DNA from: an uncultured Candidatus Peribacteria bacterium
GTDB taxonomy: Bacteria; Patescibacteriota; Gracilibacteria; BD1-5; UBA2023
NCBI GenBank assembly: GCA_964553745.1
Contig: CAZKLD010000004.1
Location: forward strand, 32,945-96,944
Length of the DNA stretch: 64,000 nt
Direction: 5' to 3'
Numbering within the stretch: position 1 is the first letter of the stretch; each line of letters opens with the position of its first letter. This document shows, in pieces, positions 1 to 64,000 of this stretch. The position numbers and the translations under genes were made by a program. The notes under the pieces are model-generated. The model ran no database searches. It saw only the letters and a program-made list of their open reading frames with translations, and was not told the DNA's origin.

Positions 1-503
1 AGCTCTATTCCATTTGCTTTCGTTATTATATCTCAATTCAATAATCATGCATCTTTTGCAGGAGACCCGGCGATTATCCTATCTATGGAAACCCCAAAAT
101 CATTTTTTTCTACAACGGCTCAGATTCATTCGAAGTCTCAGCTCAATGTCTCATTGAATTTTTTTGTCTCATCTATATCGAAGAATTCGGAATGCTTATC
201 TTTAAGGGATCATACCAATCATTTTATCATTCAGTAGACAATATCCTTATCCGATAAATTTTTAAATCAATAATAATTAGCTGAAACTATATCATAAGCC
301 TCATTGAATAGCTTAAGATCGATGTTTTTATCATTTTTGAAAACTTTGTTAAAATCTTGTAAGATATTTTGGCGCTTCTCATTATTGTATTGATCTGCAG
401 TAATGCCTATAAAATCCCTTTGTCATGCAATATATCAGCAAAAAAAAGCAAATAATATAAAAACAATAGTAAATATATACTGTTTATTAAATTTATATGT
501 CAT
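1..503 (-). CDS. C-terminal processing (tail-specific, S41) peptidase, N-terminal part; gene runs off the left edge
   Basis: Minus strand with TGA=Gly reads MTYKFNKQYIFTIVFILFAFFCGYIAG (membrane anchor) ... FNEAYDIVSANYYGF ... YGMIKGLVGSLKDKHSEFF ... LSGDFEGIG ... IAGSPAKDAGLLNGDII (PDZ). This is the typical Ctp/Prc layout. There is an alternative in-frame ATG at complement 534-536. Confidence 0.85.
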
Positions 504-797
504 GTAAATAATAATTAAGAAATTTCTCACATTCATAATAGGTTTTTTATTTAAAAAAACAAGTCAAATAATTATTTAAATTATAGGAAACAAATTGTTA
601 AAAACTCTAAAAAAATGGCTTTATTAAAAGGATAAAACAGTGTTAAAAAAACAAGGATGTTAAAATATGAAAGCTTGAAATCCTTTTCCGATAAGGGGTA
701 TTATTTTAAAAACGATTCTATAATAATAAAAATACTTTGTAATATATATAATTTTATGTTATACTCATATTCAGAAAATCATTTAATGTAAAATAAA

Positions 798-1112
798 ATG
801 TTCTTAAGCTCAATTTTTAGGAAATATAAAGATAGGGAATATAGATTAGTTCTCATCAAGGATCTGATTAGCTGATTAGAAATAGACGATAACCAAAAAA
901 ATCTCTATCTGGATTCTTTAGAAGTCTTAGATGGTGAATCTTTGGAAAGATTCTACAACAAGCTTACATCAGTCATTGAAATCATTGAAGAAGATGAGAA
1001 TAAGCTTTCTTTCCAAAAAAACAAGCAGGAAATCTATAAGTTGAATACTCAAGAACAGCAGGATAAAAGACAGGAACTCAATTCTTTTAATTTAATACTT
1101 GATAATATATAA
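798..1112 (+). CDS. hypothetical protein, 104 aa, acidic/coiled-coil
   Basis: Open frame ATG 798 to TAA 1110-1112 with one in-frame TGA (MFLSSIFRKYKDREYRLVLIKDLISGLEIDD...). No recognisable domain. Confidence 0.55.
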
Positions 1113-1113
1113 T

Positions 1114-1314
1114 ATGTCAACCAAATTTGAAATTAATGAAGGTCACGATATTAAATCTTTTGAAAACCAAAGGCAATATGTCAGAGAACAAGCTAAAAGC
1201 AATACAGACTTTTTTGTTGGTTTTCTAAACACCTCACTCCCGATCGCAGAAAAAAGGACTATCGAAGCGGCAGCTAAAAATGATATTTGAAAATTAAAAC
1301 AGGAATTGGCTTAA
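1114..1314 (+). CDS. hypothetical protein, 66 aa
   Basis: ATG 1114 lies 2 nt after the previous stop. The track ORF 1099..1290 continues through TGA 1288-1290 to TAA 1312-1314 (MSTKFEINEGHDIKSFENQRQYV...NDIGKLKQELA). Confidence 0.5.
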
Positions 1315-1403
1315 TTTCAAGGCGAATAAATAAATAAACTTGATAATAATCATATAATTAGTAATCTAGGAGCATATATAAATATACAAAATAAATAATA
1401 TTT

Positions 1404-2768
1404 ATGGCTTTTTTTAAAGCGGTCTGTGCAAAAAATAATCAAAAGATTGAGTTGCTTGTGCAATTCGGTTCGATTGAGGAGGCACGCGAGAACTTACATA
1501 GGCAATGATATTCGATAATCGAGTTAAAAGAGACTTCTGGTAATACATTATGAGATACCGGGGTTTTTTATTTTGATATTTTGGCAGATTGAAAAGTAAA
1601 AACATGACAGATAAGCTCTAATGATATATTTAAAGCTTATGTCAAACTGGTAGATAATTTGCATTATGATGTCATTCATATTTATGATCAGAAAGATAGG
1701 GATGAAAAAGAGAAGATACTGATAACGCAGAAAGTAAAGAATTCCTATGATATATTCAAGTGAACTAAAGTAGAGCAAGATAGGAAAAATGAAGAGAAAA
1801 AAATAGAAGATAAGAAGCAGGAACATGTAAAATCACAATGAGAAAATCTCCCGGAATTTTTAAAGAAGGAATTGAATTTCTACTATGGCCTTATCGATAA
1901 GGTTCTCGAAAAAATAGATTTCATCCTTAATAATTTCAGGGAAAATCTATCAGAAGAGAAAAAAGAAAAGCTGAATGAACTCTATAATAAGCTGAAACAG
2001 GTTAAAAATATCACGAATGTAACCAAATTAAAGCTTATTTGAGAGATTGCGCTTGTGAAAATATGAGAATTGCAGGTGGAACTCTTGGAAGGGCATATTA
2101 TAGATAATAAAAAATGAATATTAAGCGAGACTAATAAGCTCCTAAAATCATTCTGATCATCTAAGCAGGTTATTCTCCCAGAAGATGATATCCGGCTCAA
2201 ATTAAACAAGATAATCAATGACCTGATCGATAATTTCAAAGATTTCATCAAAACCAATGCCAAGAAGGATAAAATAGATAAAAATTCTTGAAAATATTAT
2301 GATATACTGCGCGAAAAAAATATCTATGAAAAAAAATTAAAGGAAGTCAATAAGGAAATCACAAAGAATTTTTTCAATAAGGAGAATAAAAAAAGGCTTG
2401 AATTGAAAAAGAAACTCATAAAACAGAATATAACCCTTTTATGAAACCGTATAAACAATAAAAAAATATCATATACAAAAACAATCAAAGGATTCAATTA
2501 TTATAAAGATGTCATCATTTACCTACTGCAAAGGATAAGCGATACTATAATCTATTCACTTTTCATATATTCATTATTTTTTGTTTTTTTAAATATCTCA
2601 TCAGTGTTATTTTGAAAGAATTTGGATATAAATTATGATTTCTTGTTGTATATTTCTCTTTTTGCATTCCTAGGATTCCTTTTGAAAATATCTAAAAATT
2701 TTATAATTCTTGCCTTTTGCACAATTATTTATATATTATTTTTCATATTTTTAGTAATAAATTTTTAA
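1404..2768 (+). CDS. hypothetical membrane-anchored coiled-coil protein, 454 aa, with two N-terminal GspF/PilC-N-like small repeats
   Basis: Frame checked codon by codon: no TAA/TAG from ATG 1404 to TAA 2766-2768, about 15 TGA. The N-terminus is FFKAVCAKNNQKIELLVQFGSIEEARENLHRQGYSIIELKE, then VFYFDILADGKVKTGQISSNDIFKAYVKLVDNLHYDVIHIYD. A long K/E-rich helical region and two or three C-terminal hydrophobic helices follow. Confidence 0.75.
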
Positions 2769-2873
2769 TAAGTGTATATTTTCTTTTTGCTTATTAATCT
2801 AATATTTTCAATTATTTTCTATTTATTTTCTCATCTGATAGAAAGTATTTTTTTCCTTGCCACCTGAATTATA

Positions 2874-3968: not shown

Positions 3969-3969
3969 T

Positions 3970-4602
3970 ATGCTGAGAAAGATATTAAACTTTTTCGGGA
4001 ACATATTCCTTCTTCCTGATGAAGAAAAGAGGTATAAGAAGATTTTTATAGATAAGACTCAGCACTATCGGAATGAGCTCCAAGAAATTTATATCGATAA
4101 AGTCCTTGTTGCATGCGAATATGAGGAAAATATCAAAAACGATCTCAAAAAATTCAAATATGAGTATAATAAAAAATCCCTTGAAAAAATAGTATCTTGT
4201 TATGTTGAATTGTATCACAATTTCTCAGAATCAGGGAAGCCAGGCGATATTATAGTCACTTGAATCCCTCTTTTTACATTGAATCGGCTCCTAAGATGAT
4301 ATAATCAGACATATTTGATTTGAGAATCATTGGCTAAGAAAGTATGATTGGATTTTTGAAAACTTCTCTTAAAGCCGAAATATACCAAGAGACAAGCCAG
4401 ATTAGACAAGAATAGGAGATTTTCGAATTTAAAACATTGTTTTAAAATTAATTATAAATATAATGTTTCAATTGTCTGAAAGACAATACTGCTTATAGAT
4501 GATGTGATTTCCACATGAACCACATCAAATGAGGCAGCAAGAGTACTTAAGGAATCGTGAGCAAAGGAAATAATATGATTATTCCTAGCCACATGAAAAT
4601 AA
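3970..4602 (+). CDS. comFC: ComF-family amidophosphoribosyltransferase-like competence protein
   Basis: With TGA=Gly: ...NRLLRGYNQTYLIGESLAKKVG...KRQARLDKNRRFSNLKHCF...GKTILLIDDVISTGTTSNEAARVLKESGAKEI. This carries the PRTase PRPP loop and the RGYNQ motif typical of ComFC. Confidence 0.85.
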
Positions 4603-4620: not shown

Positions 4621-7467
4621 GTGTCAGAATTATTGGAAGTAAGATGAGCAAAGACTCATAACCTGAAAAACGTATCCATAGACATACCGAAAAACAAGCT
4701 TGTAGTGATAACAGGGGTTTCATGATCCGGTAAGTCAAGCCTAGCATTCGATACTATATATGCCGAGTGACAAAGGAGATATCTTGAAAGCCTTTCTACA
4801 TATGCGAGGATGATAATAAGCTCGATAAACGAAGACACGAAAGTTGAAGAGATAAGATGATTATCGCCTACGATAAGCATTAATCAGAAAACAGTCTCCT
4901 CAAATCCGAGGTCTACTGTCTGAACCATAACTGAGATATATGATTTTTATAGGCTCCTTTATGTCCATGTATGAATCCAGAGGTGTCCTAATCATCCTGA
5001 GATAATCTTGAAAAAAGATACTCTGAACGATGTTTTGTCTTATATTGAAGAGTTGCAGGATGATACGAAATATTACATATTGTCGCCAGTCGAAAAGAAA
5101 TTCGAGTCAATAGACGATTTCAAGAGAGAAATATTAGAGTCAGGTTTTATCAGATATATGATAGACGATATGGTTTTTTCCATATGAGATGAGGTTAATA
5201 TCAAATTCACAGATAAATCAAAGCTATATATTGTCGTAGATAGGCTTATTTCCAATAAAGATTCAAACAAGAATGAGAATTCATCAAGGAGAATCAAAGA
5301 TTCTATAGAAGTCGCCTATAAGGGATGAAGATGACTTCTGATGATTTACGAGGTCGATTCAAAAAAATTCAAGATATTCTCTCAAGATGCCTTCTGTCCT
5401 ATATGCCATTATAAATTAGAAAATCTCAGCCTGTCTAATTTCTCATTCAATTCGCATTATTGAGCTTGCCCTACATGTCATTGATTATGAATGCAGGTCG
5501 CCTTCCTTGAAGATAATATAATAAATCATAAGCTATCTTTGAATGAATGAGCGATTTTACCTTGGAGCCAGCATAAATACTATATACAGATTCTTAATGC
5601 TGTTTGCGATAAATATTCGATTGATTGCAATCTTCCCTATAATAAGCTTAATGAAAAAGAAAAAAGAATAGTCCTATATTGAGTCCCTGAGACATTTGAT
5701 CTTGTCTATACTTTCGATGATGGCCAGAGCCATAATTATAAGACGAAGTATGAGTGAATAATTCCTAACCTAGAAAGGAAATATAAGGAATCAGATGCCC
5801 AGAGCGAGACTTCACTCAAAAGGATTTCACAGTATATGACAGAAATAGTCTGCTCTGACTGCAGAGGATATAGGCTCAAGAAAGAATATTTGAATGTCTT
5901 TGTCTGAGACAGGAATATCTGAGAGTTATCCAATCTCAATGTCAGACAATCTATGGAGTTTTTTGAGGGGCTTAATTTAACCGAAACACAAAAATCAATA
6001 TCTAAGAACATTCTGAAGAACATAAAAGAAAGATTATCATTCTTGGCTGGAGTGGGATTGGATTATATCACAGTGGCAAGAAGGGCTAATACATTATCCT
6101 GATGAGAATCACAGAGGATCAGGCTCGCTACACAGATATGAACAAGGCTTGAATGAATAATCTATATCCTTGATGAACCTTCCATATGATTGCATCCCAG
6201 GGATAATAATATGCTAATAGATAACCTAAAGAAGCTGTCGCAAATATGAAATACTGTCATAGTTGTCGAACATGACGAAGATATAATGAGGGAATCAGAC
6301 TACATAATCGATGTCTGACCATGAGCCTGAATACATTGATGAAATATTATATTCAAATGAACATTCGAAGAGATACTTAAAGATGCTAATTCCGAAACAG
6401 GCTTATATCTTTCCAATAAGAAGATGGTGACGCTGGAGAAGAAGCAGAGAAAGATTGCGTGATATCTTGAGATAATATGAGCCGAGGAGAATAATCTGAA
6501 AAATGTCGATGTTAAGATACCGCTATGACTCTTAAATGTTGTGACCTGAGTATCAGGATCTGGTAAATCAAGCCTTATCCTTGATATTTTATCGAACCAT
6601 CTCCTCAACTCATTCTATTCATCTATACATCCAGTCTGAAAAGTCAAAGAAATAAAATGAGCTCACCAATTGGACAAGGTGATTATAATAGACCAATCCC
6701 CGATATGAAGGACTCCTCATTCGAATGTTGCAACATATACATGAGTCTTCACCCATATAAGAGAAGTATTCGCCAAGAGCCAAGAGGCAATCAAGAGATG
6801 ATATTGACCATGAAGATTCAGCTTCAATACAAAATGAGGAAGATGTGAAATATGCGAATGAAGCTGAGTGAAGAAGATAGAGATGCACTTTCTGCCAGAT
6901 GTCTATGTCGAATGCGAGAATTGCCACTGAACAAGATATAATCAGGAGACACTTGAAGTCAGATATAAATGAAAGACTATTTCAGAAGTTCTCGAAATGG
7001 ATGTTGAGGAAGCTAGAGAATTCTTCTCAGCGCATCCGAAGATATTTAAGATCATAGATGTGCTTTACAGCGTTTGACTGTGATATATAAAAATATGACA
7101 ATCCGCTCCGACTCTTTCCGGATGAGAATCCCAGAGGATAAAGCTCGCTTCAGAATTAGCCAAAAGATCGACATCCAAGACAATATATATACTTGATGAA
7201 CCGACAACATGACTTCATTTCAATGATGTTCAGAAATTAGTGAATATCTTGGATTCGCTTGTCGACAAATGAAATACCGTCCTTGTTATCGAGCATAATC
7301 TTGATCTTATAGCCAATGCAGATTATATCATCGATATCTGACCGGAATGATGAGACAGATGATGAGAACTGATCTATGTCGGGAAATTAGAATGAATCAT
7401 AAAAGAGAAGAGATCTTATACTTGAGAGGCACTGAGAAAATATTGGGAACATAAGAAAATCAGTTAA
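4621..7467 (+). CDS. uvrA: excinuclease ABC subunit A
   Basis: 948 codons checked line by line with no TAA/TAG and about 58 in-frame TGA. Motifs: [68 protein letters not shown], second Walker A [12 protein letters not shown], zinc-finger cysteines, [20 protein letters not shown]. GTG start at 4621 (TTG 4633 is an alternative). Confidence 0.97.
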
Positions 7468-7473
7468 ATAATT

Positions 7474-12850: not shown

Positions 12851-15800
12851 ATGAGTAATCTTTCTAAAAAAGTTACTTCTGCTATAAGTGTAGTTGCTAT
12901 AGTTGCATCTGCGGTTGGTTCTTCAATCGTTGCTGCTGCTTCTGGTTTCCTACCTTATGCTGAAGCTTTGGCTACTGCCGGTTATATTCAATCTTCATCT
13001 AATGAAGCTGGATACAGACTAGCAGATACTGCATCAAGACAAGAAGTTGCTGGTACAGCAATCAAAATGAAACTTGGTACAGGTTCTACTGCACTTCCTG
13101 CAAATTATTCTTGTAAAGGATACTTTACTGATGTTTCTGCTACTACTCCAGCTAGCTGGTCATGTAGAGCTGCTGAATTAGCAGCTGACAACGGTATCGT
13201 TTCTCAAGCAAACGCTAAATTCCGCCCTACTGATAATATTACTAGAGCTGAAGCTCTTGCAATGGTATTGAAGGCTGCTGGAATGGAAATTCCTACTGTT
13301 ACTACTTCATCATTCAATGATGTTACTATTGCTTGGCAAGTTAATGTAGCTGAAGCTGCACTTGCTAAGAAAATCATTTCTGCTAACGCAAGTTTCAGAC
13401 CAAATGATTCTGTATCAAGAGGTGAACTATTTGTATTTGCTGCTAACGCTTTAGGTCTTAGTGTTGATGATTTCAACCTTGATGACATACTAAACGGTGG
13501 TGACACTTCAACTGGTACTACTTCAACTGGTACTACTTCAACTGGTACTACTACTGAAGTTAAAGCTGGTGATCTTAACATATCTCTAAATCCTGCTTCT
13601 CCTGCTGTTGGAACTCAAGTTCCTATGTCTGGAATAATCAGATTTGCAGTTGTTGATTTCAAGGCCGCTTCTTCTGATGTAACTCTTAGTTCAGTTGAAC
13701 TTAAGAAAGCTGGTCTTTCTACAGTTTCTTCTTCTACTAAGGTATGGTTCGAAAAGAATGGTCTAAGACTATCTGGTAAAGCTTCTTTCACTTCTGAAGG
13801 TAACGCTATCGTTTCTTTCGCTCCATCTATAGTTATTAAAGCTGGTGCAACTGAATCTCTAGACCTTTACGTTCAATTGGCTGATAGTGTTGCTGGTACT
13901 GACTACCAATTCGTATCTGGAAACATCCTAAGCTCTGCTCAGAATGTTGCTGGTGCGTTCATGACTCCTGTTCTAAGGACTGCTAACTATACAGTTGCAA
14001 CATTCAATGCTGCTGCTGCTTCTTCTGGTGCAGATTACAAAGCTTCAAACGATGTTATCGAACTTGGTGCTTTCAAAATCTCTGCAACTAAGACTGGTTC
14101 AGTTACTGAAACAAGAGACGAAAAATTCCAATCAGTTACTCTATACCAATCTGGTACAGCTAACTTAACAAATCTTTCTAATATCGTTCTAGTAAGAAAC
14201 GGACAAGTTATCTCTTCTGGTGCAACTGTTGCTGGAAAAGCTCTTACTTTCGTTGTTAACGATATCATCAAAGACGGTGCTACTGCTACTTACTACATTA
14301 AAGCTAACATCAACAATGTAGAAAATCAAACTGATAGCTACCAATTCTACCTTAAGAATACATCTGATATCAGTGTAATCGAAGCTAATTCTGGTTTCCG
14401 CGCTAACGCTGATGCTACTACTGAGACTTCTAGATTCGTTGCTTCTCTTTACACTGTAAACGGAGGTGATGTTAAATTTGATAGAGACCCTTCTGTTGCT
14501 CTTTCTGCTAATTACGCTCCTGGAACTGATAATGTTGTTCTTATGCAAGGTACAATCACTGCTAAGAATGCTGTTACTCTTGAAGATCCAAGCCTAACTA
14601 TCAGCAACCTAACAGGTACTGGTAATCTTTCTAACTACTTCAATACTCTTTACCTAACTGTTGGTAATTCAGTATTCTCTGCAACTGCTGCTGGTACTGG
14701 TGGTGCTTCTATTGTTTTCAATGGAACTACTACTATATCTGGTACTGCTCAAGTTAAACTTTACGGTACACTAAAGAGCACTACTAATATGCCTGATGCT
14801 ACAATCAAATTCGGTGACTTGACTCTTGCTTCATTTACTGGAACAAATCAATACACTGCTAATCAAAACAATGTTACTTCTGCTGTAGGTTCTATTCCTG
14901 GTATCAGCGTTTCTGTTGCTAACACTTCTCTTAACGTTACTCGTAACGATGGGCTTGGTGATACTTCACTTGCTGCTGGTTCTAAATCAGTTGTACTTTA
15001 CGGAGTTCAACTTTCTTCTACAAGAGGTAATCCTGTTAACGTAACTTCTGCTAGCTTCCAATTTACTGGATCTGGTACTACTGCAACTGGTTTTGTAAAT
15101 AACGCTTACGCTACTCTATACGTAGATGGTGTTGCTGTTTCTTCTAAGACTGTTGATTCTACTAATTCAATCAAATTTGATGGAATCAGTGCTACTGTTA
15201 ATCCTTCTAAAGCTGTTAATCTAGTTGTTAAGGCTGATTTCTCTGATAACTTCCAAGGTGGAACTATCAGGACTGCTATGACTGCTATAGCTGCTGTTGA
15301 TTCTATCAGCTCTAAGGATATCGTTGTTTCTACTTTCCCAGCTGGTGCTATATTTACTGTTCAGGCTGCTAGCGCTACATTCGCTGCTTCTGACGCTAAT
15401 CCACAAGCTAGCCTATTCTTGGCAGGAAGTACTAACAATAAACTATACGCTGTTAAAGTAACTGCTGCTAACGATAATGTTAATCTAAAGACTGTTGCCC
15501 TAACAGGTACTGGTCTTGGAGCTTTCGCTAACTTCAAACTTTACGATGCTGCTGGTGCTCTAGTTGCTAACTCTTCTTCTGAAAGCGCAACTGCTGTAAC
15601 TTTTGATAACATTGACGCAACTAAATCTACTGTTGCTCAAGATAAATCAGTAAGTTACGTAGTTTCTGCTGATGCTAACACTAATACTGATGCTACTGGA
15701 ATCCAATTGGTTCTTGGAAGTGCAGTAATCCGTGGAAGCAATGGTCTAGAGATCAACGCAACTACTACTTCTATCGCTTCTAACCTTCACGCTGTTGCTC

Positions 15801-16231
15801 AAAACACTGCTGTGATCGCTAAGGCTACTAACCCAAGTAAGGAACTTACAACTAGCGCTCTAAGATTCTCTGTTGCTGCTTCTGGTAAGAACTCTGTTAC
15901 TATCTCTTCACTAAGTCTTTCTTCACTTCTTTCAGGTTACACTGGATCAACTGTAGTAAGCGTGTATAAGGATAGCATAAGCGCTTCTAACCTTGCATTT
16001 ACAGGTACACTTGGATCTGCACAAACTCTACTTCCTACTGCAAACGCTAAAAACACTGTAGATGCTGGATCAACTGCTACATATATCGTAGCTATTGAAG
16101 GCACTATCATTGATGCTACTGCTCAACAAAGTTCTTGGACTATATCTTTGAATGATGTTGTATTCGGTACTGCAATCTCTGCTAAGAACTACTACAATGT
16201 TGGACAATTCCCAATTACTGAAGTTAAATAA
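12851..16231 (+). CDS. S-layer-like surface protein: signal peptide, SLH anchoring domains, T/S/G linker, repeated beta-rich domains (1126 aa)
   Basis: The only long standard-code ORF in the window. The N-terminal signal peptide is KKVTSAISVVAIVASAVGSSIVAAASG. SLH repeats include FTDVSATTPASWSCRAAELAADNGIVSQANAKFRPTDNITRAEALAMVL and FNDVTIAWQVNVAEAALAKKIISANASFRPNDSVSRGELFVF. About 900 aa rich in A/T/S/V/N with no Cys follow. It is flanked by a structured leader and a strong terminator. Confidence 0.9.
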   Translation: MSNLSKKVTSAISVVAIVASAVGSSIVAAASGFLPYAEALATAGYIQSSSNEAGYRLADTASRQEVAGTAIKMKLGTGSTALPANYSCKGYFTDVSATTPASWSCRAAELAADNGIVSQANAKFRPTDNITRAEALAMVLKAAGMEIPTVTTSSFNDVTIAWQVNVAEAALAKKIISANASFRPNDSVSRGELFVFAANALGLSVDDFNLDDILNGGDTSTGTTSTGTTSTGTTTEVKAGDLNISLNPASPAVGTQVPMSGIIRFAVVDFKAASSDVTLSSVELKKAGLSTVSSSTKVWFEKNGLRLSGKASFTSEGNAIVSFAPSIVIKAGATESLDLYVQLADSVAGTDYQFVSGNILSSAQNVAGAFMTPVLRTANYTVATFNAAAASSGADYKASNDVIELGAFKISATKTGSVTETRDEKFQSVTLYQSGTANLTNLSNIVLVRNGQVISSGATVAGKALTFVVNDIIKDGATATYYIKANINNVENQTDSYQFYLKNTSDISVIEANSGFRANADATTETSRFVASLYTVNGGDVKFDRDPSVALSANYAPGTDNVVLMQGTITAKNAVTLEDPSLTISNLTGTGNLSNYFNTLYLTVGNSVFSATAAGTGGASIVFNGTTTISGTAQVKLYGTLKSTTNMPDATIKFGDLTLASFTGTNQYTANQNNVTSAVGSIPGISVSVANTSLNVTRNDGLGDTSLAAGSKSVVLYGVQLSSTRGNPVNVTSASFQFTGSGTTATGFVNNAYATLYVDGVAVSSKTVDSTNSIKFDGISATVNPSKAVNLVVKADFSDNFQGGTIRTAMTAIAAVDSISSKDIVVSTFPAGAIFTVQAASATFAASDANPQASLFLAGSTNNKLYAVKVTAANDNVNLKTVALTGTGLGAFANFKLYDAAGALVANSSSESATAVTFDNIDATKSTVAQDKSVSYVVSADANTNTDATGIQLVLGSAVIRGSNGLEINATTTSIASNLHAVAQNTAVIAKATNPSKELTTSALRFSVAASGKNSVTISSLSLSSLLSGYTGSTVVSVYKDSISASNLAFTGTLGSAQTLLPTANAKNTVDAGSTATYIVAIEGTIIDATAQQSSWTISLNDVVFGTAISAKNYYNVGQFPITEVK
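13505..13549 (+). repeat. 3 x 15-bp perfect tandem repeat (ACTTCAACTGGTACT) encoding (TSTGT)3 linker
   Basis: Read directly at 13505-13519, 13520-13534 and 13535-13549, between the SLH region and the body of the protein. Confidence 0.9.
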
Positions 16232-16264: not shown

Positions 16265-16301
16265 AAAAAAAATCCTCCCGATTCATCGGGAGGATTTTTT
16301 T
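16265..16301. terminator. strong rho-independent terminator, A-tract/T-tract flanked (bidirectional shape)
   Basis: AAAAAAAA-ATCCTCCCGA-TTCA-TCGGGAGGAT-TTTTTTT, 34 nt after the S-layer stop. Confidence 0.85.
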
Positions 16302-16924: not shown

Positions 16925-17974
16925 TTATTCGATTATTCAGCTTCATATCAGTTCATCTCCGATATATGCGGCTAGAGTCTGGCCTGAGGCAATGGCGCGC
17001 TGATTATTTGCGAAATGCGCGCTTATTTGATTTTTTCCGATAGTTGATAGCCTGACACTCTGATCAGCTTGTCTATAGCGGATTTTTGAGGTACAATCTA
17101 GGGGAAGCTCATATTCCTTGCCTATCCAGTGCCAATTTCTCAGAAGAAGGCTATTTGAATACAATTCCAATTCAGATTCATTTCAGACAACAACTTCATT
17201 TCTCTCGACATCTTTCTTGACAACATAAAGTGCAGGTCATCATCCGAGCATTATTCATTTTCTCTGTCAGATTGTAAAATACCATGCTCAATTATGTTCG
17301 CCAAGCACGCGTCATGAAGTGTCGATAATGTTTCATTTTTTTGTCGGGATTTTCTTTTCAAGGAACTTATGCATATCCACTTTCCCTACGAAACAGATTC
17401 ATTGGGAATCCTTCCTTTTCGCATTGGGCAGATTTATCTCTTCTGCAATCCTGCGCACTTCTGGCTTCTCTAAGCCTCAAATCGGGAATAGGGATTTTGA
17501 TAATTGATATTGATTCAATCAGGCTAAGAAATACGATTGGTCCTTATTCGGGTCAATTCACTTAAGAAGATGGTATTCTCCGCCTCTGTCTTCTATCTTC
17601 GCATAATGTCCAGTTGCAATGCAGTCGAATCATAGTTTCATCGCTTTCTCGAGGAAAAGCTTAAATTTGATTTCGGAATTGCAGAGTATATCCGGATTTG
17701 GAGTGATTCATGATTTGTATCATTCATAGATATATTCCACAACTTTTGCATTATATTCCTCACGGAAATCAAAGATTATGAATTCTTTTATTCATAGGTG
17801 CTGAGCGACTTTTATAGCCTCATCCCTGTCCTCTCTGGTAGGGCAGTCCTCTTCAGCTGAGACGTAATTCTTCATGAATCATGCCACAACCTCATAACCA
17901 TCTTTCTGCAGAAGATAGGCACTAACGGCACTATCCACTCAACCCGAAAGTCAAACTAATACTCTCTTTTTCAT
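16925..17974 (-). CDS. mnmA: tRNA-specific 2-thiouridylase
   Basis: MKKRVLVGLSGGVDSAVSAYLL (PP-loop; two of its glycines are TGA), NPDILCNSEIKF, IATGHYA, DQSYFL, KDSQGICFVG, and the C-terminal RYRQ...ASGQTLAAYIGDELIGSG. Confidence 0.93.
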
Positions 17975-22798: not shown

Positions 22799-24193
22799 AT
22801 GTTAGGAAGAGTAATGATTGTCGGTAGGCCGAATGTGGGTAAATCAAGCTTATTTAATGCCATTTCAGGGCATAGGATAGCGATAGTTTCAGACATTGAA
22901 AATACAACAAGGGATATCATAGAATATCTGCAAAACGATGAAGATAACGAGATAAGCTATATAATCGCCGATTCCGGATGATTGACCAGCGGTTCGAGTG
23001 ACGAGATACTTAATGATGTCCGGAAAAGGGTTCAGGATTCAATCGAAAAATCCGATCTGATAATTTTTGTCACGGAATGCGATAAGATAACTGATCTGGA
23101 TGAGGCTATCACAAAGATCCTGAGAAAGTCATGAAAAGACGTGATAGTGGTCTGAAATAAGGCTGACAACCAGAATAAAGTTTCAGAATCATATGAGATG
23201 TACAGTCTCGGTTTTGAGGATGTCATTTTTGCGAGCGTGTCACACAGAAGATGAATCTCAGAATTGAGAGAGACGATTGCAGCAAAGCTCAAGAAAAGAT
23301 GATTTGACACCAAAGAGGAGAAATACGATGATTCATATATCAAATTGGCGATTGTCGGTAGGCCGAATGTCGGCAAGTCCAGCATCATCAATGCAGTTAC
23401 ATGAGAGAATAAAGTCATGGTCAGGGACATGCCGGGAACCACAAGAGACGCTGTCGACACGCTTTTTGACTATAATGACAAGAAATTCGTGCTAATAGAC
23501 ACCGCATGAATAAGAAGGGCATGAAAGATCTGAGTCGGAAATATAGAGGATTGGAGTGTGATGAGAAGTGAGATCTCCATTACAAGGGCAGATATTGTTG
23601 CTGTTGTCATGGACTGATTCGATGGAATCACTGCAGGAGACCAGCATATAGTTGAGAAAGCTCTAGAAGAGAAGAAATGAATAATTCTCGTTGTGAATAA
23701 ATGGGATAAAGTTTTGGCAAAGCCAGGCATCGACAAAGACAAAATGATGGACGAATACATGCATTACTTAAAGCAGAAATTTGAATTCTTGGCTTACGCT
23801 TCGCCTATATTCACTTCTGCAGTCACAGGTAAGAGGCTTGAGGAGATATTGGAATCTGCAATTAAAATCAAAGAAGAAAGACAAAAAAGAGTCAAGACGT
23901 CCGTATTCAATTCCTTCATCGAGCAGATCGTCTATAAGCATCCGCCTACTTGAAACAAGAAATCCCACAAACCGAAGATATACTACGGTTCTCAAGTAGA
24001 CATCAATCCTCCTAGATTCTTGATTTCTGTCAATTCTCCGAGTCATTTCCACTTTTCGTATACCAGATATATCGAAAACAAGATAAGGGAATTCTTCGGA
24101 TTCTGGTGAACGCCGATTGAGATCGAGCTCAAATGAAGGGAAAGCATCTACAAGAAATCTGCAAAGAAAAATATCGTTTCAAAAATAACCTAA
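22799..24193 (+). CDS. der: ribosome-associated GTPase Der/EngA (two GTPase domains plus KH-like domain)
   Basis: [14 protein letters not shown] ... DSGG ... NKAD, then a second domain [14 protein letters not shown] ... DTAG ... NKWD, then the C-terminal [16 protein letters not shown]. Confidence 0.95.
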
Positions 24194-24256: not shown

Positions 24257-25018
24257 ATGCTAAACATTGCAATCAATACATTCCGTGAATTGGCCAGAAA
24301 CAAAATACTCTATCTTATCCTGTTCTTCTGAGTCCTGCTTATAATATTCTCGCTTGCACTTGCGTCTCTTTCCATGTGACAGACAGATAAGATCATAATC
24401 GATTTCTGATTGGCGATGATCGAGATGTTCTGATTGGTTTCTGTAATATTCATCGGAAGTCAGCTCATATTCAAGGAGATAGAATGAAAGACCATATATC
24501 TGATACTTTCAAAGCCTATTTCAAGATATCAATTCATCCTAGGCAAGTTCATTTGATTTGCCATGATCCTAGCTTGTATAATATTCTTCCAGTCAGTAAT
24601 ATTCTGAGCGCTCCTCGTATACTCGAAGACGGCTTTTGTTTACCTCATACCAGTATCTATCGTATTCATCTACCTTAAGCTTCTTGTACTTTTTGCAATC
24701 ATACTTTTCTTCTCGACATTCATCTCGTCCATATTGTCCATTGTCTTGACCATGCTTGTCTATGTGATTTCGCATTCTCTCACTTCAATAATAGATATGG
24801 CTGTTCATGCCAAGAGCATGGCACTGCTCAATATCGGCAAGGTCCTGTATATAGTCTTCCCTAATTTCGAATGACTGAATATTAAAAATTTGATATTATC
24901 TCCTGTCATCATAGACTTTAAATATATTTCCCTAAACTCTCTCTACGCAGTTACCTATCTCGTTCTGATTCTCGGGTTCACTATAATCATATTTAACAGG
25001 AAGACATTTGAAAACTAG
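24257..25018 (+). CDS. ABC-2/NosY-like transporter permease (six predicted TM helices)
   Basis: MLNIAINTFRELARNKILYLILFFGVLLI... KEIEGKTIYLILSKPISRYQFILGKF is the typical N-terminus of ABC-2 family permeases. Confidence 0.6.
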
Positions 25019-25670
25019 CATAGACTCTGTCGAGTTCTTCTATCGGAAATTTTACTATAACAGGCATACTCTGACTCCCAGATTAGAGACAGAGAGTCTT
25101 GTAAGGTCCGCCTTGAATATCATCCAAAATGAACAAATAGACGCCGTTATGGATGTCTGAACCTGAAGCGCGATAATTTGAATATCCATAGAGAAGGAAT
25201 CAGGGATCGACCATGTCTATTGACTAGAAAAAAGTGCCTCCGCATCAAAAGTGGCAAGATCGAATATCGCTCTGCACGATTCGAAAATGAAGCTCATTAA
25301 ATCTGATTTACTGAGTCATTTTTTTAAGGAAAAGGAACTTTATGATTTCAAGGGGAAGAATGTGCTTTTTGTTGCAAATCTCCCCTATATAAAAAATGAA
25401 GATTGGATAAATATGAGCGAAGACACCGTTTCTGAGCCCAAGATGGCGCTTTTCTGATGACCGATATCCGGCTTTGAGCTATATGAAAAATTCTTCAGAC
25501 AGCTCTTCAGGTTTAAAGATTGCTTCTGAATTCAGAAGATATTTTCTATTTCGGAGATATGATTCGATCAGAAGGATGTGGCACAGGACTACTTCAAGAA
25601 GATATGATTGGAAGTAGCATTCCTCAAGGATTTGAGGTGAATCGATAGATTTATAAACATAGAGATTTAA
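25008..25670 (+). CDS. prmC: HemK/PrmC-family release-factor glutamine N5-methyltransferase, short form lacking the N-terminal helical domain
   Basis: LTPRLETESLV, SAM motif VMDVGTGSAIIG (both glycines of GxG are TGA at 25158-25160 and 25164-25166), and catalytic FVANLPYI (NPPY variant). The probable TTG start at 25008 overlaps the upstream gene by 11 nt, so the start is uncertain. Confidence 0.8.
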
Positions 25671-32566: not shown

Positions 32567-33412
32567 ATGCAGATCCCAATAAAAAAAGTATGATACGTGG
32601 CACTTATATGAAGGCCCAATTCCTGAAAATCAACTTTCATAAATGCCCTGATAGATGAGAAGGTCTCTATAGTTTCTCCGCGCCCCCAGACAACCCAGAA
32701 ATGCATAAGATGAATATTCAATGATGAGGATTCCCAGATCATCTTTTTCGACACGCCATGAGTCAATGAATGAAAAGAGGAGTTTTTTCAGCATCTTAAA
32801 TGAAACGTGATAGATTCTGTGAAGAATGCAGACCTGATCCTGAGATTCATAGATAGCTCTAGACAATCATGAGGAGAGGAAGATCTGATAACATCCATTT
32901 TGCAGAACGTAACAAAGAAAATAATCAACGTATATACAAAATCAGACATCACGACTATAAAGATCCCTCAAAATGAGCTAGTGATTTCTTCTGTTGATAA
33001 GAAATGATTCGAAGAATTACTGGTTGAAGTGAAGAAACATTTGCCCACTTGACCGCTCTATTATGATGAGGATTATTATACCGATCAGGATACCGAAACC
33101 AGAATAGCAGAAATCATAAGGGAAAAGATATTCCTTAATTTCAAAGAAGAAATCCCTCATTCAGTTTTTGTCGAGATTGGCGAAATAGAGGATAAACCCG
33201 AAATATTGCGCATACAAGCCTATATCTATACAGAATCAGATTCGCAGAAAATCATAATCATAGGTAAAGGTGGACAGGCCTTGACTACAATCGGCACAGA
33301 AGCCAGGAAGGATCTTGAAGAGATTTTCGATAAGAAAATCTTCCTTTCTCTCCGTGTGAAATCTCTTCCCAAGTGGAAAAAGAACAAGAAATTATTATCT
33401 AAGCTTTACTAG
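32567..33412 (+). CDS. era: GTPase Era
   Basis: P-loop GYVALIGRPNSGKSTFIN (glycines at 32609-32611 and 32624-32626 are TGA), DTPG, TKSD, and the C-terminal KH domain IIIGKGGQALTTIGTEARKDLE. Confidence 0.93.
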
Positions 33413-45669: not shown

Positions 45670-45699
45670 AAAAACCTCCCCGATTCGGGGAGGTTTTTT
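45670..45699. terminator. rho-independent terminator (A-tract/T-tract flanked) downstream of trxA
   Basis: AAAA-ACCTCCCCG-ATT-CGGGGAGGT-TTTTTG. Confidence 0.75.
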
Positions 45700-45713
45700 G
45701 CTTGAAATCCTGA

Positions 45714-46061
45714 TTATTGAGCGGGATTTGTATACTTAGATATTTCAGCCTCTAGGACTGAGACTTCTTGGATTCACACGATAGGAGTCCCTACAGGCTT
45801 ACCATCCTTGAATATCATCATTGTCGGAATGCTCATTATCCTGAATCACATTGCAGTATTCGGTTCTTCGTCAACATTCATCTTCATGATCTTTGCCTTA
45901 TCTCATACTTTCTCAGCGAGCTCATCAAGCCTTGGGATCATGACTTGGCATGGTCCGCACCATACTGCCCAGAAATCGACTAAGGTAACTCATTTTGCTA
46001 TATCTTGTGCGAAAGTCGCATCGGTAGCATGTAAAACTTTTGTAGTTCAATCTTTTGACAT
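45714..46061 (-). CDS. trxA: thioredoxin
   Basis: LVDFWAVWCGPCQVMIP (WCGPC active site), FRIMSIPTMMIFKDGKP. 115 aa. Confidence 0.93.
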
Positions 46062-46114
46062 AATATTATAGTTTAATGATTAAATTATCAGCTGATTAAG
46101 TTTAACGGATAGGA

Positions 46115-53620: not shown

Positions 53621-54571
53621 ATGATCAAGATATGATTCTTCTGAACCCCCAAGCTCGCCGCTGCTGTGCTCCAAGATATTTTCGAAACCTGAGAATTCGA
53701 GATACCTTTCGTTGTGACCTGATTGGATAAGCCGGTCTGAAGATCTCAAGTTCTCACTCCGACTCCTGTAAAGCAGTTCGCCCTAGAAAAGTGAATCAGT
53801 GTCATCCAGCCGCATAAGATAAGATGAAACGATGAATTCTTGGCTGAAATCAAGAGCTTCTGAGCAGATTATTTTGTAGTTGTGGCATATGGCAAAATCC
53901 TGCCCGTTTCAGTCTTGGAAGCCCCAAATAAAATGTGCATAAACGTCCACGGATCCATACTTCCCCTTTACAGATGAGCTTCGCCTATCCAGAGTGCCCT
54001 TATCAATTGAGAGATGCTGACAGGGGTGACCATAATGAAGATGTCGGAATGAATGGATGAATGAGATATCATAGATATGCTGCCGATCAATATAGACAAG
54101 TTCGACACTACAGAAACTTTGTTCAAGAAATTTGAAGAAGTGAGCGGAAAGTTCCTGGCCGAGACCATCATTGCCCTTGATGAATGAAAAAGGTGACTGC
54201 TTCCTCAGGTTGAAGAGGCTGCCACTTACTGCAAGAAGATAACAAAAGAGGACGGGCTGCTTGATTTCCGCAGAACCGCACAGAATCTGTTCTACTTATG
54301 GAGATGACTTACCCCTTGGCCATGAGTCTATGGCTATTTTAAGGGGAAGAAGATTATAATCACAAATTGTGATTTCATAGAAGACAATGTGGACGGCGAA
54401 GTCTGACAAGTCATAAGGTGAGATTTCTGAATCTGAATCAAATGCTCGATCTGAGTCCTCATCCTTAAAGAAGTCAAGCTTGAAGGCAAATGAAATTCAA
54501 GGATATCTGACTTCATAAACGGCAGAAAAGATTTTATATGATATGTTTTCAATTCTGATGGACATGAATAA
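53621..54571 (+). CDS. fmt: methionyl-tRNA formyltransferase
   Basis: MIKIGFFGTPKLAA..., [54 protein letters not shown]...DEGDI. Confidence 0.93.
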
Positions 54572-61829: not shown

Positions 61830-61993
61830 TTGAAATAAAATATAAGAGATTCCGTATATATAGAGGCATCTCTTAATCTTAAAAGGTCTATAGCAATAAC
61901 AGGCCTTTTTGTATTATTTTTATTTTATAATCTTATTTATTGCTATTAGAATTTTATCATTAAACTATTTTTTATCTTCTAAATTTCTTAATC

Positions 61994-63802
61994 ATGAATG
62001 TGAAAAAATTTTTTTATTGAGCAAAAATTCTTGTCAGGAATCTTTTAAGATTGGACAGATTCTTCTGGAAAGATCTTAAGAAATATATAATCTCCATTTA
62101 TGTCATAATGGTTTTGGACGTATGATTCAATTTCATATCGAGGTGATCTCAGGCAATCATAATCAACAACCTCATACAGATTGCGAATTGAGTGACTTTG
62201 GAGAGAAGAACAATAATCATCCTCGCAGTCGTTCTTGTCGCCACCCTCATCTTGCCGAGCTTCATCAATATAGTAAGCTGATTCTATAGGCTTGTGATCT
62301 GGAGGAAAATAGACGAACTCATAAATCTCACATTCATCAGGAAAAAAGCGAGCTTCGACCTGAATCAATTGGAAAACACCGCTAACACAACCCTTTTCCA
62401 GAGAGTCCAGGAAAACATGTGGAGATTCAGGTCATATTTCTATACCCAGTTCGACATTTCAGGCTCTATTTTCAACCTAGTCGCAATTCTTTTCACCCTT
62501 ATCCTGATAAAGCCCGTTGTCGCATTGGTCATCTTGGTCTTCACTCTGCCAGAGGCCATCTCCAAGCTAAGCATCTCAAAGCATGTGTGGACCATAGACA
62601 ATCTCCACTGACCGATCAAGAAGAAATACAATTACCTTAAGGGCCTATTCTTCCAGTGGAATCCTATAATGGACATCAAATTCAGCGGGAATATAGATTT
62701 TTTCACAAATAAGATAAGAAAAATAATCGACCCATTCCTTATCGAGCAGTACAAGAATGATAAGAAGAGATCGATAAACTCAGCGATGACAATATTTATC
62801 TCAAAGGTGGGGATAATCATTTCGGCATTCATCCTCATTTATGCGGTCTACAACAAGGAGATGCAGATAGGTACGTTTGTCTTCCTGTACGGACTTATCG
62901 CATCTTTCCAGTCGAGCCTGAGCTTCTTCTTCTGATATATAGTCCAGCAATATGAGGACAATCTCTATGTGGAAGAATATTTCCAGATACTCGATATGAA
63001 GAACGAGATGCGGTTCTCACAGAATCCGATTGTCCTGCCCGCAAAAATCACACCGAAGATCGAGCTCAGAAACGTGAGCTTCTCATATCCCGACAAGGAC
63101 AAGGAGATATTGCACAAACTCAACCTCACCATAAATCCGTGAGAGAAGATAGCTATCGTATGAGTCAATTGAGCCGGTAAATCCACGCTGGTGAAGCTCC
63201 TTACAAGGTTCTATGATACGACCGGATGAGAGGTGCTTATAGATTGAAACAATATAAAAGATCTGGATTTGCAGTCTTGGTGGAGCCAGGTTAGCTATAT
63301 GCAGCAGGATACGCCAAGCTATATGTTTGAGGTCAAGCAATCGATAGCCATGAGTGATACAACAAGGAATATCGACATGAAGAAGGTCGAAAACGCCGCC
63401 CAGATGTCGCTTGCCCATGATTTTATAAAGGAATTCAAAAATTGATATGCTCAGCAGCTGTGAAGGAATTTCGATGACGGTGAATCGCTCAGCTGATGAC
63501 AATGGCAGCGCATGAACCTAGCGCGGATCTTCTATAAGGATCCGCAAGTATACATACTCGATGAGCCGACATCAGCCATGGATGCGGAAGCTGAATCCAA
63601 AATATTCGAAACTCTCGCGAATCTGCCGAAGGATAAGACCGTAATATTCATATCTCATAGATTCTCCACAATCAGGCAGGCAGACAGGATATGCGTCATC
63701 GAAGATTGAAATATAATCGAAGTCGGAAGCCATAAAGAGCTTATAGCTAACAACAAGAGCTACAAGAGACTCTTCGAACTCCAGGCGAAAGGATACGCTT
63801 AA
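61994..63802 (+). CDS. ABC exporter, fused permease/ATPase (MsbA/type I exporter architecture)
   Basis: Six-TM N-terminal half, then IVGVNGAGKSTL (Walker A), LSGGQWQRMNLAR, YILDEPTSAMD, ISHRFST. It joins track ORFs 62294, 62669 and 63512. Confidence 0.92.
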
Positions 63803-63818
63803 GAAAAAGAGAAATTGT

Positions 63819-63847
63819 AAAAGAGACCTTAAAAGGTCTCTTTTTTG
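63819..63847 (+). terminator. rho-independent terminator
   Basis: AAGAGACCTT / AAGGTCTCTT stem followed by TTTTGAC. Confidence 0.7.
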
Positions 63848-63897
63848 ACTAAAAATCAGGAATATGTTAAAATTCTAAGGATTAACTTTTCTAAAAA

Positions 63898-64000
63898 ATG
63901 CACAGAGAACTTATAGAAAAACTGAAACAATATTGATTGTCCGAAAAGGAATCGAAGGTTTATCTGGTTTCGCTTGAAATGTGAACGAGCATCGTCAGCA
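63898..64000 (+). CDS. TrmB-like HTH transcriptional regulator, N-terminal fragment (runs off the right edge)
   Basis: MHRELIEKLKQYGLSEKESKVYLVSLEMGTSIVS matches the TrmB-family N-terminal wHTH pattern. Confidence 0.6.

What the first reader, a model, noticed from the sequence alone, without database searches (positions are those of the whole stretch)
1..64000. Whole window is recoded: in-frame TGA encodes glycine (translation table 25)
Every recognisable housekeeping gene is broken by TGA under the standard code, and the TGA codons sit at invariant glycine positions:
- UvrA Walker A GVS-G-SGKSS (4723-4725).
- UvrA YAE-G-QRRY (4768-4770).
- Era P-loop G-RPNS-G-KST (32609-32611 and 32624-32626).
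- PrmC-like SAM motif DV-G-T-G-S (25158-25160 and 25164-25166).
- MnmA PP-loop SGGVDS.

uvrA alone carries about 58 in-frame TGA in 948 codons (hand count). TAA and TAG still terminate every gene. This code is known only from Gracilibacteria/BD1-5 and Absconditabacteria/SR1, so it identifies the lineage. It also makes the supplied six-frame track, and any table-11 gene caller, badly misleading here.
Basis: partly seen in the sequence, partly recalled or inferred. Interest (0 to 1): 0.7.

Follow-up and report, generated by a model that had tools for sequence, protein, structure and literature searches.

The report
UGA-means-glycine genome of a Gracilibacterium
This 64-kb stretch comes from a Gracilibacteria (BD1-5) bacterium that reads the stop codon TGA as glycine, an already known alternative genetic code, so the finding is correct, matters for annotating the window and is not new.

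Summary
The observation and the interpretation both hold. uvrA (4621-7467) has 948 codons and 58 TGA.

- **Coding density:** with three stops, ORFs of 100 aa or more cover 36% of the window. With TAA/TAG only, 51 non-overlapping ORFs cover 93%. About 47 of these are credible genes, and all complete ones end in TAA or TAG.
- **TGA columns:** 62 UvrA genes that lack in-frame TGA carry Gly in 85% of cells at the 58 TGA columns, against a 3% background, and never Trp. PDB homologues of UvrA, MnmA, Fmt and Der give 86/115 Gly and 0 Trp.
- **Profile scores:** NCBIfam scores are 24-223 bits higher with Gly than with Trp.
- **Codon share:** TGA supplies 68% of glycine codons.
- **Lineage:** the nearest named relatives are Candidatus Gracilibacteria. 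An identical UvrA is already public, mistranslated with code 4.
- **Other codons:** the few informative CGA/CGG codons sit at arginine positions.
- **Untestable here:** tRNA-Gly(UCA) and loss of RF2. Published work reports both features for this lineage.

One exception may be new. The 1126-aa S-layer gene (12851-16231) has 85 glycine codons and no TGA. Its orthologues in seven relatives are also TGA-depleted. This suggests that selection acts against UGA-Gly in this presumably very highly expressed gene.

The parts
1..64000 (.). Whole window: about 47 genes that read TGA as a sense codon (glycine) and terminate only at TAA/TAG
   Evidence: ORFs of at least 100 aa cover 36% of the window with three stops. 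Non-overlapping ORFs cover 93% with TAA/TAG only. TGA makes up 812 of 1201 glycine codons in 46 ordinary genes.
4621..7467 (+). uvrA: GTG start, 948 codons, 58 in-frame TGA
   Evidence: It aligns end to end with 2r6f_A (E 1.6e-269), where 52 of the 58 TGA columns are Gly. Across 62 TGA-free UvrA genes the same columns are 85% Gly. NCBIfam NF001503 scores 1284.7 bits with Gly and 1061.6 with Trp, which is below the 1147 cut-off.
4723..4725 (+). TGA at the Walker A glycine of UvrA (GVS-G-SGKSS)
   Evidence: Sequence read. It aligns to G in 2r6f_A and 9gxk_A.
4768..4770 (+). TGA at the YAE-G-QRRY glycine of UvrA
   Evidence: Sequence read. It aligns to G in 2r6f_A and 9gxk_A.
16925..17974 (-). 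mnmA: 21 TGA, two of them in the PP-loop (V-G-LSG-G-VDS)
   Evidence: 17 of the 21 TGA columns are Gly in 9hlv_A. NF001138 scores 429.4 bits with Gly and 354.3 with Trp.
22799..24193 (+). der (engA): 14 TGA
   Evidence: 7 of the 14 TGA columns are Gly in 2hjg_A, and none is Trp. TIGR03594 scores 449 bits with Gly and 425 with Trp.
25008..25670 (+). Short PrmC-like glutamine methyltransferase. The start is uncertain; a TTG at 25008 was assumed. TGA at 25158-25160 and 25164-25166 lie in the SAM motif DV-G-T-G-S.
   Evidence: TIGR03534 scores 144 bits, below the 199.1 cut-off, and matches profile positions 51-252. Translation.
32567..33412 (+). era: 10 TGA, with P-loop glycines at 32609-32611 and 32624-32626
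   Evidence: Translation. NF000908 scores 287.9 bits with Gly and 255.5 with Trp.
53621..54571 (+). fmt: 23 TGA
   Evidence: 10 of 22 aligned TGA columns are Gly in both 4iqf_A and 3tqq_A, and none is Trp. TIGR00460 scores 271.1 bits with Gly and 220.0 with Trp.
12851..16231 (+). S-layer-type SLH-domain gene, 1126 aa. It has 85 glycine codons and none is TGA. This is the one large gene that a table-11 caller gets right.
   Evidence: Pfam SLH, E 3.6e-12. Glycine codons are 58 GGT, 25 GGA, 1 GGC, 1 GGG and 0 TGA, and GC3 is 0.19. Fisher p = 8e-40 against the other genes. Orthologues in seven relatives are also depleted.
16273..16301 (+). Intrinsic-terminator-like hairpin after the S-layer gene (TCCTCCCGA-TTCA-TCGGGAGGA, then TTTTTTT)
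   Evidence: Read directly from the sequence. The consensus scan did not list it.
45714..46061 (-). Thioredoxin gene (WCGPC motif, 5 TGA), hidden under a longer spurious plus-strand ORF at 45667-46071
   Evidence: Six-frame reading. TIGR01068 scores 102.2 bits against a 96.8 cut-off when TGA is read as Gly.

Best explanation
The window is chromosomal DNA of a Gracilibacteria (BD1-5) bacterium that uses NCBI translation table 25. UGA is decoded as glycine, and only UAA and UAG terminate translation.

**Shown here**
- TGA occurs in frame about 4.4 times per 100 codons.
- It sits at conserved glycine positions and never at tryptophan positions or at homologue C-termini.
- It supplies about two thirds of all glycine codons.

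**Inferred from published work on this lineage, not tested here**
- A dedicated tRNA-Gly with anticodon UCA reads UGA.
- Release factor 2 has been lost, so nothing competes at UGA.
- RF1 terminates at UAA and UAG.

**Inferred from the relatives examined here**
- The share of TGA among glycine codons is broadly higher in lower-GC genomes.
- This fits AT-biased mutation converting GGN to TGA once the change became synonymous.
For: - **Coding density:** 36% of the window in ORFs of at least 100 aa under table 11, against 93% in non-overlapping ORFs with TAA/TAG stops.
- **UvrA:** the 58 TGA columns are 52 Gly in 2r6f_A and 51 Gly in 9gxk_A. They are 85.2% Gly across 62 UvrA genes with no in-frame TGA, against 3.0% Gly at other columns. 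Gly reaches at least 90% in 45 of the 58 columns, and Trp is 0%.
- **Other proteins:** MnmA 17/21 Gly, Fmt 10/22 and Der 7/14, with no Trp.
- **Profile scores:** Gly beats Trp by 223, 75, 51, 24 and 32 bits for UvrA, MnmA, Fmt, Der and Era. The Trp version of UvrA falls below the curated cut-off.
- **Composition:** glycine is 6.6% of residues with TGA counted and 2.1% without. Tryptophan is 0.5% from TGG alone and would be about 4.9% under code 4.
- **Termination:** the complete genes end in TAA or TAG, and the alignments run to within a few residues of those stops.
- **Lineage:** the nearest named homologues are Candidatus Gracilibacteria, at up to 71% identity for UvrA. S-layer homologues are named only from Gracilibacteria, 'uncultured bacterium (gcode 4)' or unclassified 'bacterium' records.
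- **Relatives:** in 13 related loci with in-frame TGA, standard-code UvrA genes have 59-98% Gly at those columns.
- **Literature:** UGA=Gly was confirmed by proteomics in BD1-5 (PMC4032931). prfB is absent and prfA present in all BD1-5 genomes then available (PMC6851277). A tRNA(UCA) with glycine identity elements is reported (PMC3812714, PMC8629427).
Against: No tRNA gene lies in the window. No tRNA(UCA) was found in 17 related loci. The decoding tRNA and the absence of RF2 are therefore not shown for this genome.

A minority of TGA columns align to other residues: 6-7 of 58 in UvrA and about half in Fmt and Der. This is expected at variable positions, but it does not rule out low-level ambiguity.

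Shulgina and Eddy report two genomes classified as Gracilibacteria that keep UGA as a stop codon (PMC8629427). Lineage alone would therefore not have been enough.
Confidence: 0.97

Rival explanations
1. Table 4: TGA encodes tryptophan, as in Mycoplasma. Public records of this very organism were translated that way.
For: The identical UvrA in the protein collection (P0001, JGI) has W at all 58 TGA positions. Related NCBI entries are labelled 'uncultured bacterium (gcode 4)'. Code 4 restores full-length ORFs as well as code 25 does.
Against: No TGA column aligns to Trp in any comparison. Trp versions score 24-223 bits lower. Code 4 would give about 4.9% Trp and 2.1% Gly, an implausible composition. 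The code-4 labels are a gene-caller convention (PMC3812714).
Confidence: 0.01
2. The standard code applies, and the in-frame TGAs are real stops. The window would then be a field of pseudogenes, or a stretch with systematic sequencing or assembly error.
For: Under table 11 nearly every gene is fragmented.
Against: - Homology continues across every TGA over the full protein length.
- TGA falls on invariant glycines such as Walker A and the P-loops.
- TAA and TAG never interrupt these frames.
- The same pattern recurs in independently assembled relatives.
Confidence: 0.005
3. Dual use: TGA is mostly glycine but still terminates some genes or is decoded ambiguously (Gly/Trp), depending on context.
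For: Hanke et al. found a few peptides with Trp, Ala, Asp or Lys at UGA (PMC4032931). The S-layer gene avoids TGA completely. That could reflect a cost of ambiguous or slow decoding.
Against: No gene in the window needs TGA as its stop. All complete genes reach a TAA or TAG with normal spacing, and the five checked against homologues end where the homologues end.
Confidence: 0.03

Closest known systems
Gracilibacteria (BD1-5) genomes using translation table 25, including the ACD_2C contigs deposited as 'uncultured bacterium (gcode 4)'
   Same: - UGA is read as Gly, and TAA/TAG are the stops.
- The UvrA in the public collection (P0001, JGI, 23,414-bp contig) matches the window at every non-TGA position except the assumed start residue.
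- P0121 (ACD_2C00125G0001) is a 99%-identical S-layer fragment.
- The gene order comF-uvrA-DHH-rluB-M23/SLH-GT1-S-layer is conserved in relatives.
   Different: The public protein records of this organism are translated with code 4 (Trp). The closest species representative in GTDB shares only 70% UvrA identity (GCA_028685185.1). The species itself is therefore not a GTDB representative among the hits.
Absconditabacteria (SR1) code: UGA=Gly plus CGA/CGG=Trp (Shulgina and Eddy 2021, PMC8629427)
   Same: [quoted passage not shown]
   Different: Protein hits are closest to Gracilibacteria. The informative CGG and CGA codons fall at arginine positions:
- the ABC-signature Arg in g51;
- Arg75 of Der, aligned to Arg in 2hjg_A;
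- the S4 'RLxKYL' motif;
- the LamG 'YNR' motif.
There is no sign of CGA/CGG=Trp, but power is low, with 16 CGG and 23 CGA codons.
Table 4 organisms (Mycoplasmatales, Entomoplasmatales, several insect endosymbionts)
   Same: UGA is a sense codon, and RF2 loss accompanies the change.
   Different: The amino acid is Trp, read in some of these groups by a mutated tRNA-Trp that pairs with both UGG and UGA (PMC3812714). Here it is Gly, read by an extra tRNA-Gly(UCA) according to the literature.

Membership tests
Translation table 25 (Gracilibacteria/SR1 code) | TGA is a frequent in-frame sense codon in conserved genes | tested here: met
   ORFs carry 2-8 TGA per 100 codons. uvrA has 58 in 948 codons.
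Translation table 25 (Gracilibacteria/SR1 code) | TGA columns correspond to glycine in standard-code homologues | tested here: met
   86 of 115 columns are Gly against the best PDB homologues of four proteins. The figure is 85.2% Gly across 62 TGA-free UvrA genes, against a 3.0% background. Gly outscores Trp in five NCBIfam models.
Translation table 25 (Gracilibacteria/SR1 code) | TAA and TAG remain stop codons | tested here: met
   Complete genes end in TAA (35) or TAG (11). Coding density is 93% and the median spacer is 59 nt. Alignments end at these stops.
Translation table 25 (Gracilibacteria/SR1 code) | tRNA-Gly with anticodon UCA and glycine identity elements (G1:C72, C2:G71, G3:C70, U73) | not testable with these tools
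   The window has no tRNA, and no tRNA(UCA) occurs in 17 related loci. The rest of the genome could not be reached. The feature is reported for the lineage in PMC8629427 and PMC3812714.
Translation table 25 (Gracilibacteria/SR1 code) | Release factor 2 (prfB) absent, RF1 present | not testable with these tools
   No RF gene lies in the window, only a short PrmC-like methyltransferase. Absence from a 64-kb piece says nothing about the genome. PMC6851277 reports no prfB in any BD1-5 genome.
Translation table 25 (Gracilibacteria/SR1 code) | The organism belongs to Gracilibacteria or Absconditabacteria | tested here: met
   The best named UvrA and S-layer homologues are Candidatus Gracilibacteria. 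This rests on protein similarity and shared gene order, not on a phylogeny.
Absconditabacteria-type extended code (CGA/CGG = Trp) | CGA/CGG codons align to tryptophan | tested here: not met
   The informative CGG and CGA codons sit at conserved Arg positions. Only a handful of the 39 codons lie in alignable conserved motifs, so power is low.
Translation table 4 (TGA = Trp) | TGA columns correspond to tryptophan | tested here: not met
   No TGA column aligns to Trp. Trp versions score lower in all five models.

The most novel reading that the evidence does not exclude
UGA-Gly is the commonest glycine codon in this genome, yet it appears to be translationally disfavoured.

**In the window**
- The presumably most highly expressed gene, the S-layer protein, has removed it completely: 0 of 85 glycine codons against 68% elsewhere.
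- The GGA:TGA ratio is 25:0 in that gene against 141:812 elsewhere.

**In relatives**
- The orthologues in seven other Gracilibacteria show TGA at 0-29% of glycine codons, while their neighbours show 10-85%.

**Possible meaning**
- The reassigned codon would then be kept up by AT-biased mutation and opposed by selection for speed or accuracy.
- Candidate causes are a scarce tRNA-Gly(UCA) or cross-reading between UGA and UGG.
- This could also explain why many predicted Gracilibacteria phages carry no in-frame TGA (PMC10746230). That paper instead suggested that high TGA usage reflects codon optimisation.

I found no description of this in the held literature. That is not proof that it is new.
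Probability: 0.5. Interest if true: 0.45.

Novelty: already known. Interest (0 to 1): 0.25.

Why it matters
**Practical point**
- Any table-11 gene call or six-frame view of this window is wrong.
- Code-4 translations put tryptophan at about 4% of all residues. The public UvrA of this organism carries 58 false Trp.
- Every downstream annotation of this window must use table 25.

**Scientific point**
- The code itself has been established since 2013-2014, so the window adds a confirmed instance and no discovery.

**S-layer gene**
- The TGA-free S-layer gene is the one item with some wider value.
- If it generalises to ribosomal proteins and EF-Tu, it would show that a reassigned stop codon can become the majority codon through mutation pressure while remaining selected against in highly expressed genes.
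- That bears on how codon reassignments become fixed and on phage-host code compatibility.

Tried and rejected
- **Exact look-up of the S-layer protein** to find the source contig: no record.
- **Rfam scan of the window:** no hit at gathering thresholds.
- **ARAGORN** on the window and on 17 related loci: no tRNA(UCA).
- **Metagenome scan with the S-layer protein:** only one locus returned.
- **Codon-adaptation index** built on the S-layer gene, compared with the TGA share in the other 44 genes: no correlation (rho = -0.06). The window shows no expression gradient apart from the S-layer gene itself.
- **Promoter/terminator consensus scan** around the S-layer gene: uninformative, and it missed the clear hairpin at 16273-16301.
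- **Campbell et al. 2013** (PMC3619370): not held.
- **Horizontal transfer of the S-layer gene from a standard-code organism:** considered and rejected. Its homologues are named only from Gracilibacteria or unclassified records. Its position in the gene order is conserved. Orthologues in four relatives do contain some TGA (1/90 to 27/93).
- **Selenocysteine or programmed read-through:** rejected because TGA is far too frequent.


Full report
**1. Observation**

The window is 64,000 bp with 28-40% GC.
- uvrA: 4723-4725 and 4768-4770.
- era: 32609-32611 and 32624-32626.
- PrmC-like gene: 25158-25160 and 25164-25166.
- mnmA: two TGA in the PP-loop, V-x-LSG-x-VDS.

uvrA runs from a GTG at 4621 to 7467.

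With TAA, TAG and TGA as stops, stop-to-stop ORFs of at least 100 aa cover 36% of the window. With TAA/TAG only, a greedy non-overlapping set of 51 ORFs covers 93%. Four of these are doubtful small ORFs, and a thioredoxin gene was missed by the greedy choice. About 47-48 genes are therefore credible. The complete ones end in TAA (35) or TAG (11), and the median spacer is 59 nt.

**2. What TGA encodes**

I translated TGA as X and looked at what standard-code homologues carry at those columns.

| Protein | PDB homologue | TGA columns with Gly | Trp |
|---|---|---|---|
| UvrA | 2r6f_A | 52/58 | 0 |
| UvrA | 9gxk_A | 51/58 | 0 |
| MnmA | 9hlv_A | 17/21 | 0 |
| Fmt | 4iqf_A and 3tqq_A | 10/22 each | 0 |
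| Der | 2hjg_A | 7/14 | 0 |

Background Gly in these alignments is 6-10%.

A scan of GTDB species genomes returned 80 uvrA loci, and 62 of them have no in-frame TGA. In a MAFFT alignment those 62 sequences carry Gly in 85.2% of cells at the 58 TGA columns, against 3.0% at the other columns. Gly reaches at least 90% in 45 of the 58 columns, and Trp is 0%.

NCBIfam scores favour Gly over Trp for all five proteins.

| Protein | Bits with Gly | Bits with Trp |
|---|---|---|
| UvrA | 1284.7 | 1061.6 (below the 1147 cut-off) |
| MnmA | 429.4 | 354.3 |
| Fmt | 271.1 | 220.0 |
| Der | 449.0 | 425.0 |
| Era | 287.9 | 255.5 |

Composition agrees. Glycine is 6.6% of residues with TGA counted and 2.1% without. 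Tryptophan from TGG is 0.5% and would be about 4.9% under code 4. TGA accounts for 812 of 1201 glycine codons (68%) in the 46 ordinary genes. The code is table 25.

**3. Other codons**

Shulgina and Eddy (PMC8629427) reported CGA/CGG=Trp in Absconditabacteria and CGG=Trp in some Gracilibacteria, so I listed the 16 CGG and 23 CGA codons. The informative ones sit at arginine positions.
- The Arg of the ABC signature region (LSGGQxQRxxxAR) in the last gene of the window.
- Arg75 of Der, aligned to Arg in 2hjg_A.
- The S4-domain 'RLxKYL' motif.
- The LamG 'YNR' motif.

The motif readings rest on my knowledge of those families. Only the Der position is a direct alignment. There is no sign of a second reassignment, but power is low.

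**4. Lineage and source**

The best named UvrA homologues are Candidatus Gracilibacteria, at up to 71% identity. The best GTDB representative is GCA_028685185.1 at 70%.

P0001 (JGI, 23,414-bp contig) matches the window's UvrA at every non-TGA position except the assumed start residue, and it has W at all 58 TGA positions. It was translated with code 4. An S-layer fragment from NCBI, ACD_2C00125G0001 'uncultured bacterium (gcode 4)', is 99% identical. The organism is therefore already in public data, mistranslated.

The gene order comF-uvrA-DHH-rluB-M23/SLH-GT1-S-layer is conserved in two relatives. In 13 related uvrA loci that contain in-frame TGA, the standard-code sequences show 59-98% Gly and 0% Trp at those columns.

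The TGA share of glycine codons is broadly higher in lower-GC loci. It is 0.10-0.21 at GC 0.42-0.45 and 0.47-0.85 at GC 0.23-0.33. This fits AT-biased mutation driving GGN to TGA, an idea already raised for SR1 (PMC3812714).

**5. What could not be tested**

The window has no tRNA gene, no Rfam hit and no release-factor gene. Seventeen related loci contain only tRNA-Val, tRNA-Arg and tRNA-Leu.

The mechanism is therefore taken from the literature.
- tRNA-Gly(UCA): PMC3812714 and PMC8629427.
- Absence of prfB with presence of prfA in all BD1-5 genomes: PMC6851277.
- Proteomic confirmation of UGA=Gly: PMC4032931.

**6. The exception: the S-layer gene**

The longest table-11 ORF (12851-16231, 1126 aa) is an SLH-domain surface-layer protein. 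Its 85 glycine codons are 58 GGT, 25 GGA, 1 GGC and 1 GGG, with no TGA. Fisher p against the other genes is 8e-40. For GGA against TGA alone the counts are 25:0 against 141:812, p = 1e-20.

Its codon usage is extreme. GCT is 79% of Ala codons, ACT 84% of Thr, GTT 71% of Val, CAA 93% of Gln, GAA 92% of Glu and TAC 81% of Tyr. GC3 is 0.19, against roughly 0.3-0.5 in most other genes. This is the classic signature of translational selection on a very highly expressed gene. High expression is inferred, not measured. The gene follows a 524-bp non-coding leader and is followed by a perfect hairpin with a T-run at 16273-16301.

The family is conserved across Gracilibacteria, with about 120 homologues of around 1100 aa. 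These homologues have about 0.2-0.6% Trp even in code-4 translations, whereas code-4 UvrA translations have 5-8%.

At DNA level the TGA share of glycine codons compares as follows.

| Genome | S-layer gene | Neighbouring genes |
|---|---|---|
| window | 0/85 | 0.68 |
| L001 | 1/90 | 0.68 |
| L002 | 9/86 | 0.82 |
| L003 | 0/110 | 0.10 |
| L083 | 27/93 | 0.85 |
| L084 | 0/92 | 0.11 |
| L085 | 0/84 | 0.24 |
| L086 | 22/92 | 0.81 |

All eight comparisons give p of 1e-4 or less. Some orthologues do carry TGA, the gene keeps its place in the gene order, and its homologues are named only from this lineage or from unclassified records. Recent import from a standard-code organism is therefore unlikely.

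The best reading is selection against UGA-Gly in this gene. Slow or error-prone decoding is a plausible cause. Both the U34 wobble problem noted in PMC8629427 and the trace Trp incorporation in PMC4032931 would fit.

Among the other 44 genes there is no gradient of TGA use with similarity to S-layer codon usage. No ribosomal-protein or EF-Tu gene was available. The generalisation to 'highly expressed genes' is therefore untested. I found nothing on this in four literature searches.

**7. Verdict**

The finding is correct in both observation and interpretation, and it describes a known code in a known lineage. It is essential for annotating this window and ordinary as biology. The interest score is low. 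The S-layer observation is recorded as the most novel reading that the evidence leaves open.

Noticed in passing
window 12851-16231 (+); orthologues at L001 10001-13360, L002 10001-13414, L003 14373-18098 (-), L083 10001-13381, L084 10001-13390, L085 10001-13372, L086 10001-13327: The S-layer (SLH) gene has 85 glycine codons and no TGA, while TGA is 68% of glycine codons elsewhere in the window. Its orthologues in seven relatives are also TGA-depleted, at 0-29% against 10-85% in their neighbours. The gene also has an extreme bias towards T-ending and C-ending codons.
   Followed up: partly
window 12851-16231; proteins P0121 and P0122: Two public variants of this gene exist in the same ACD_2C data set. 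P0121 is 99% identical, on a 3,168-bp contig. P0122 is only 84% identical. Its contig has the same length (23,414 bp) as the one carrying the identical UvrA, so it is probably the same contig. This suggests strain-level hypervariation of the S-layer gene that breaks assemblies.
   Followed up: no
loci L003-L012, L015, L043, L045, L046, L083-L086: Across related genomes the TGA share of glycine codons is broadly higher at lower GC: about 0.1-0.2 at 42-45% GC and 0.5-0.85 at 23-33% GC. One Gracilibacteria uvrA (L003, 44.5% GC) has no in-frame TGA at all, although neighbouring genes in that locus do.
   Followed up: partly
P0001 (JGI); L084 gene calls (ENA): Public records of this organism and its relatives are mistranslated. 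The identical UvrA carries 58 Trp from a code-4 translation. In L084 a code-11 gene caller splits uvrA into fragments, while the S-layer gene is called intact.
   Followed up: partly
window 45714-46061 (-), under a spurious ORF at 45667-46071 (+): A thioredoxin gene (WCGPC motif, 5 TGA) is masked by a longer antisense ORF when ORFs are chosen by length. It passes the TIGR01068 cut-off once TGA is read as Gly.
   Followed up: yes
window 34858-40992 (+), 41045-44197 (+), 44251-45570 (-), 27180-29804 (+): The window encodes very large proteins of 2044, 1050, 439 and 874 aa. The three that were scanned (1050, 439 and 874 aa) have no Pfam match; the 2044-aa protein was not scanned. The 40-44 kb stretch has lower GC (0.31) than its surroundings.
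   Followed up: no
window 19512-20729 (+) and 20729-21982 (+): Two adjacent paralogous genes share 26% identity (E 2e-27). The first has a radical-SAM domain hit and the second has no Pfam hit. Their function is unknown.
   Followed up: partly
window 25008-25670 (+): The PrmC-like release-factor methyltransferase is short. It matches only positions 51-252 of the TIGR03534 profile, scores below the cut-off, and has NLPY where the family motif, from memory, is NPPY.
   Followed up: partly
L086 17360-18181 (+): In a relative that uses TGA for 81% of glycine codons, one 273-aa membrane protein has 0 TGA among 19 glycine codons. It lies near a Y1 transposase and a ParE toxin gene, so it may be a recently acquired gene.
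   Followed up: no
window 56463-57005 (+): A free-standing aminoacyl-tRNA editing-domain protein (Pfam tRNA_edit, the YbaK/ProX type) is encoded in the window. No link to the recoding was examined.
   Followed up: no
window 1-4000: The first 4 kb has markedly lower GC (0.277) and encodes hydrophobic or lysine-rich proteins with no Pfam match.
   Followed up: no
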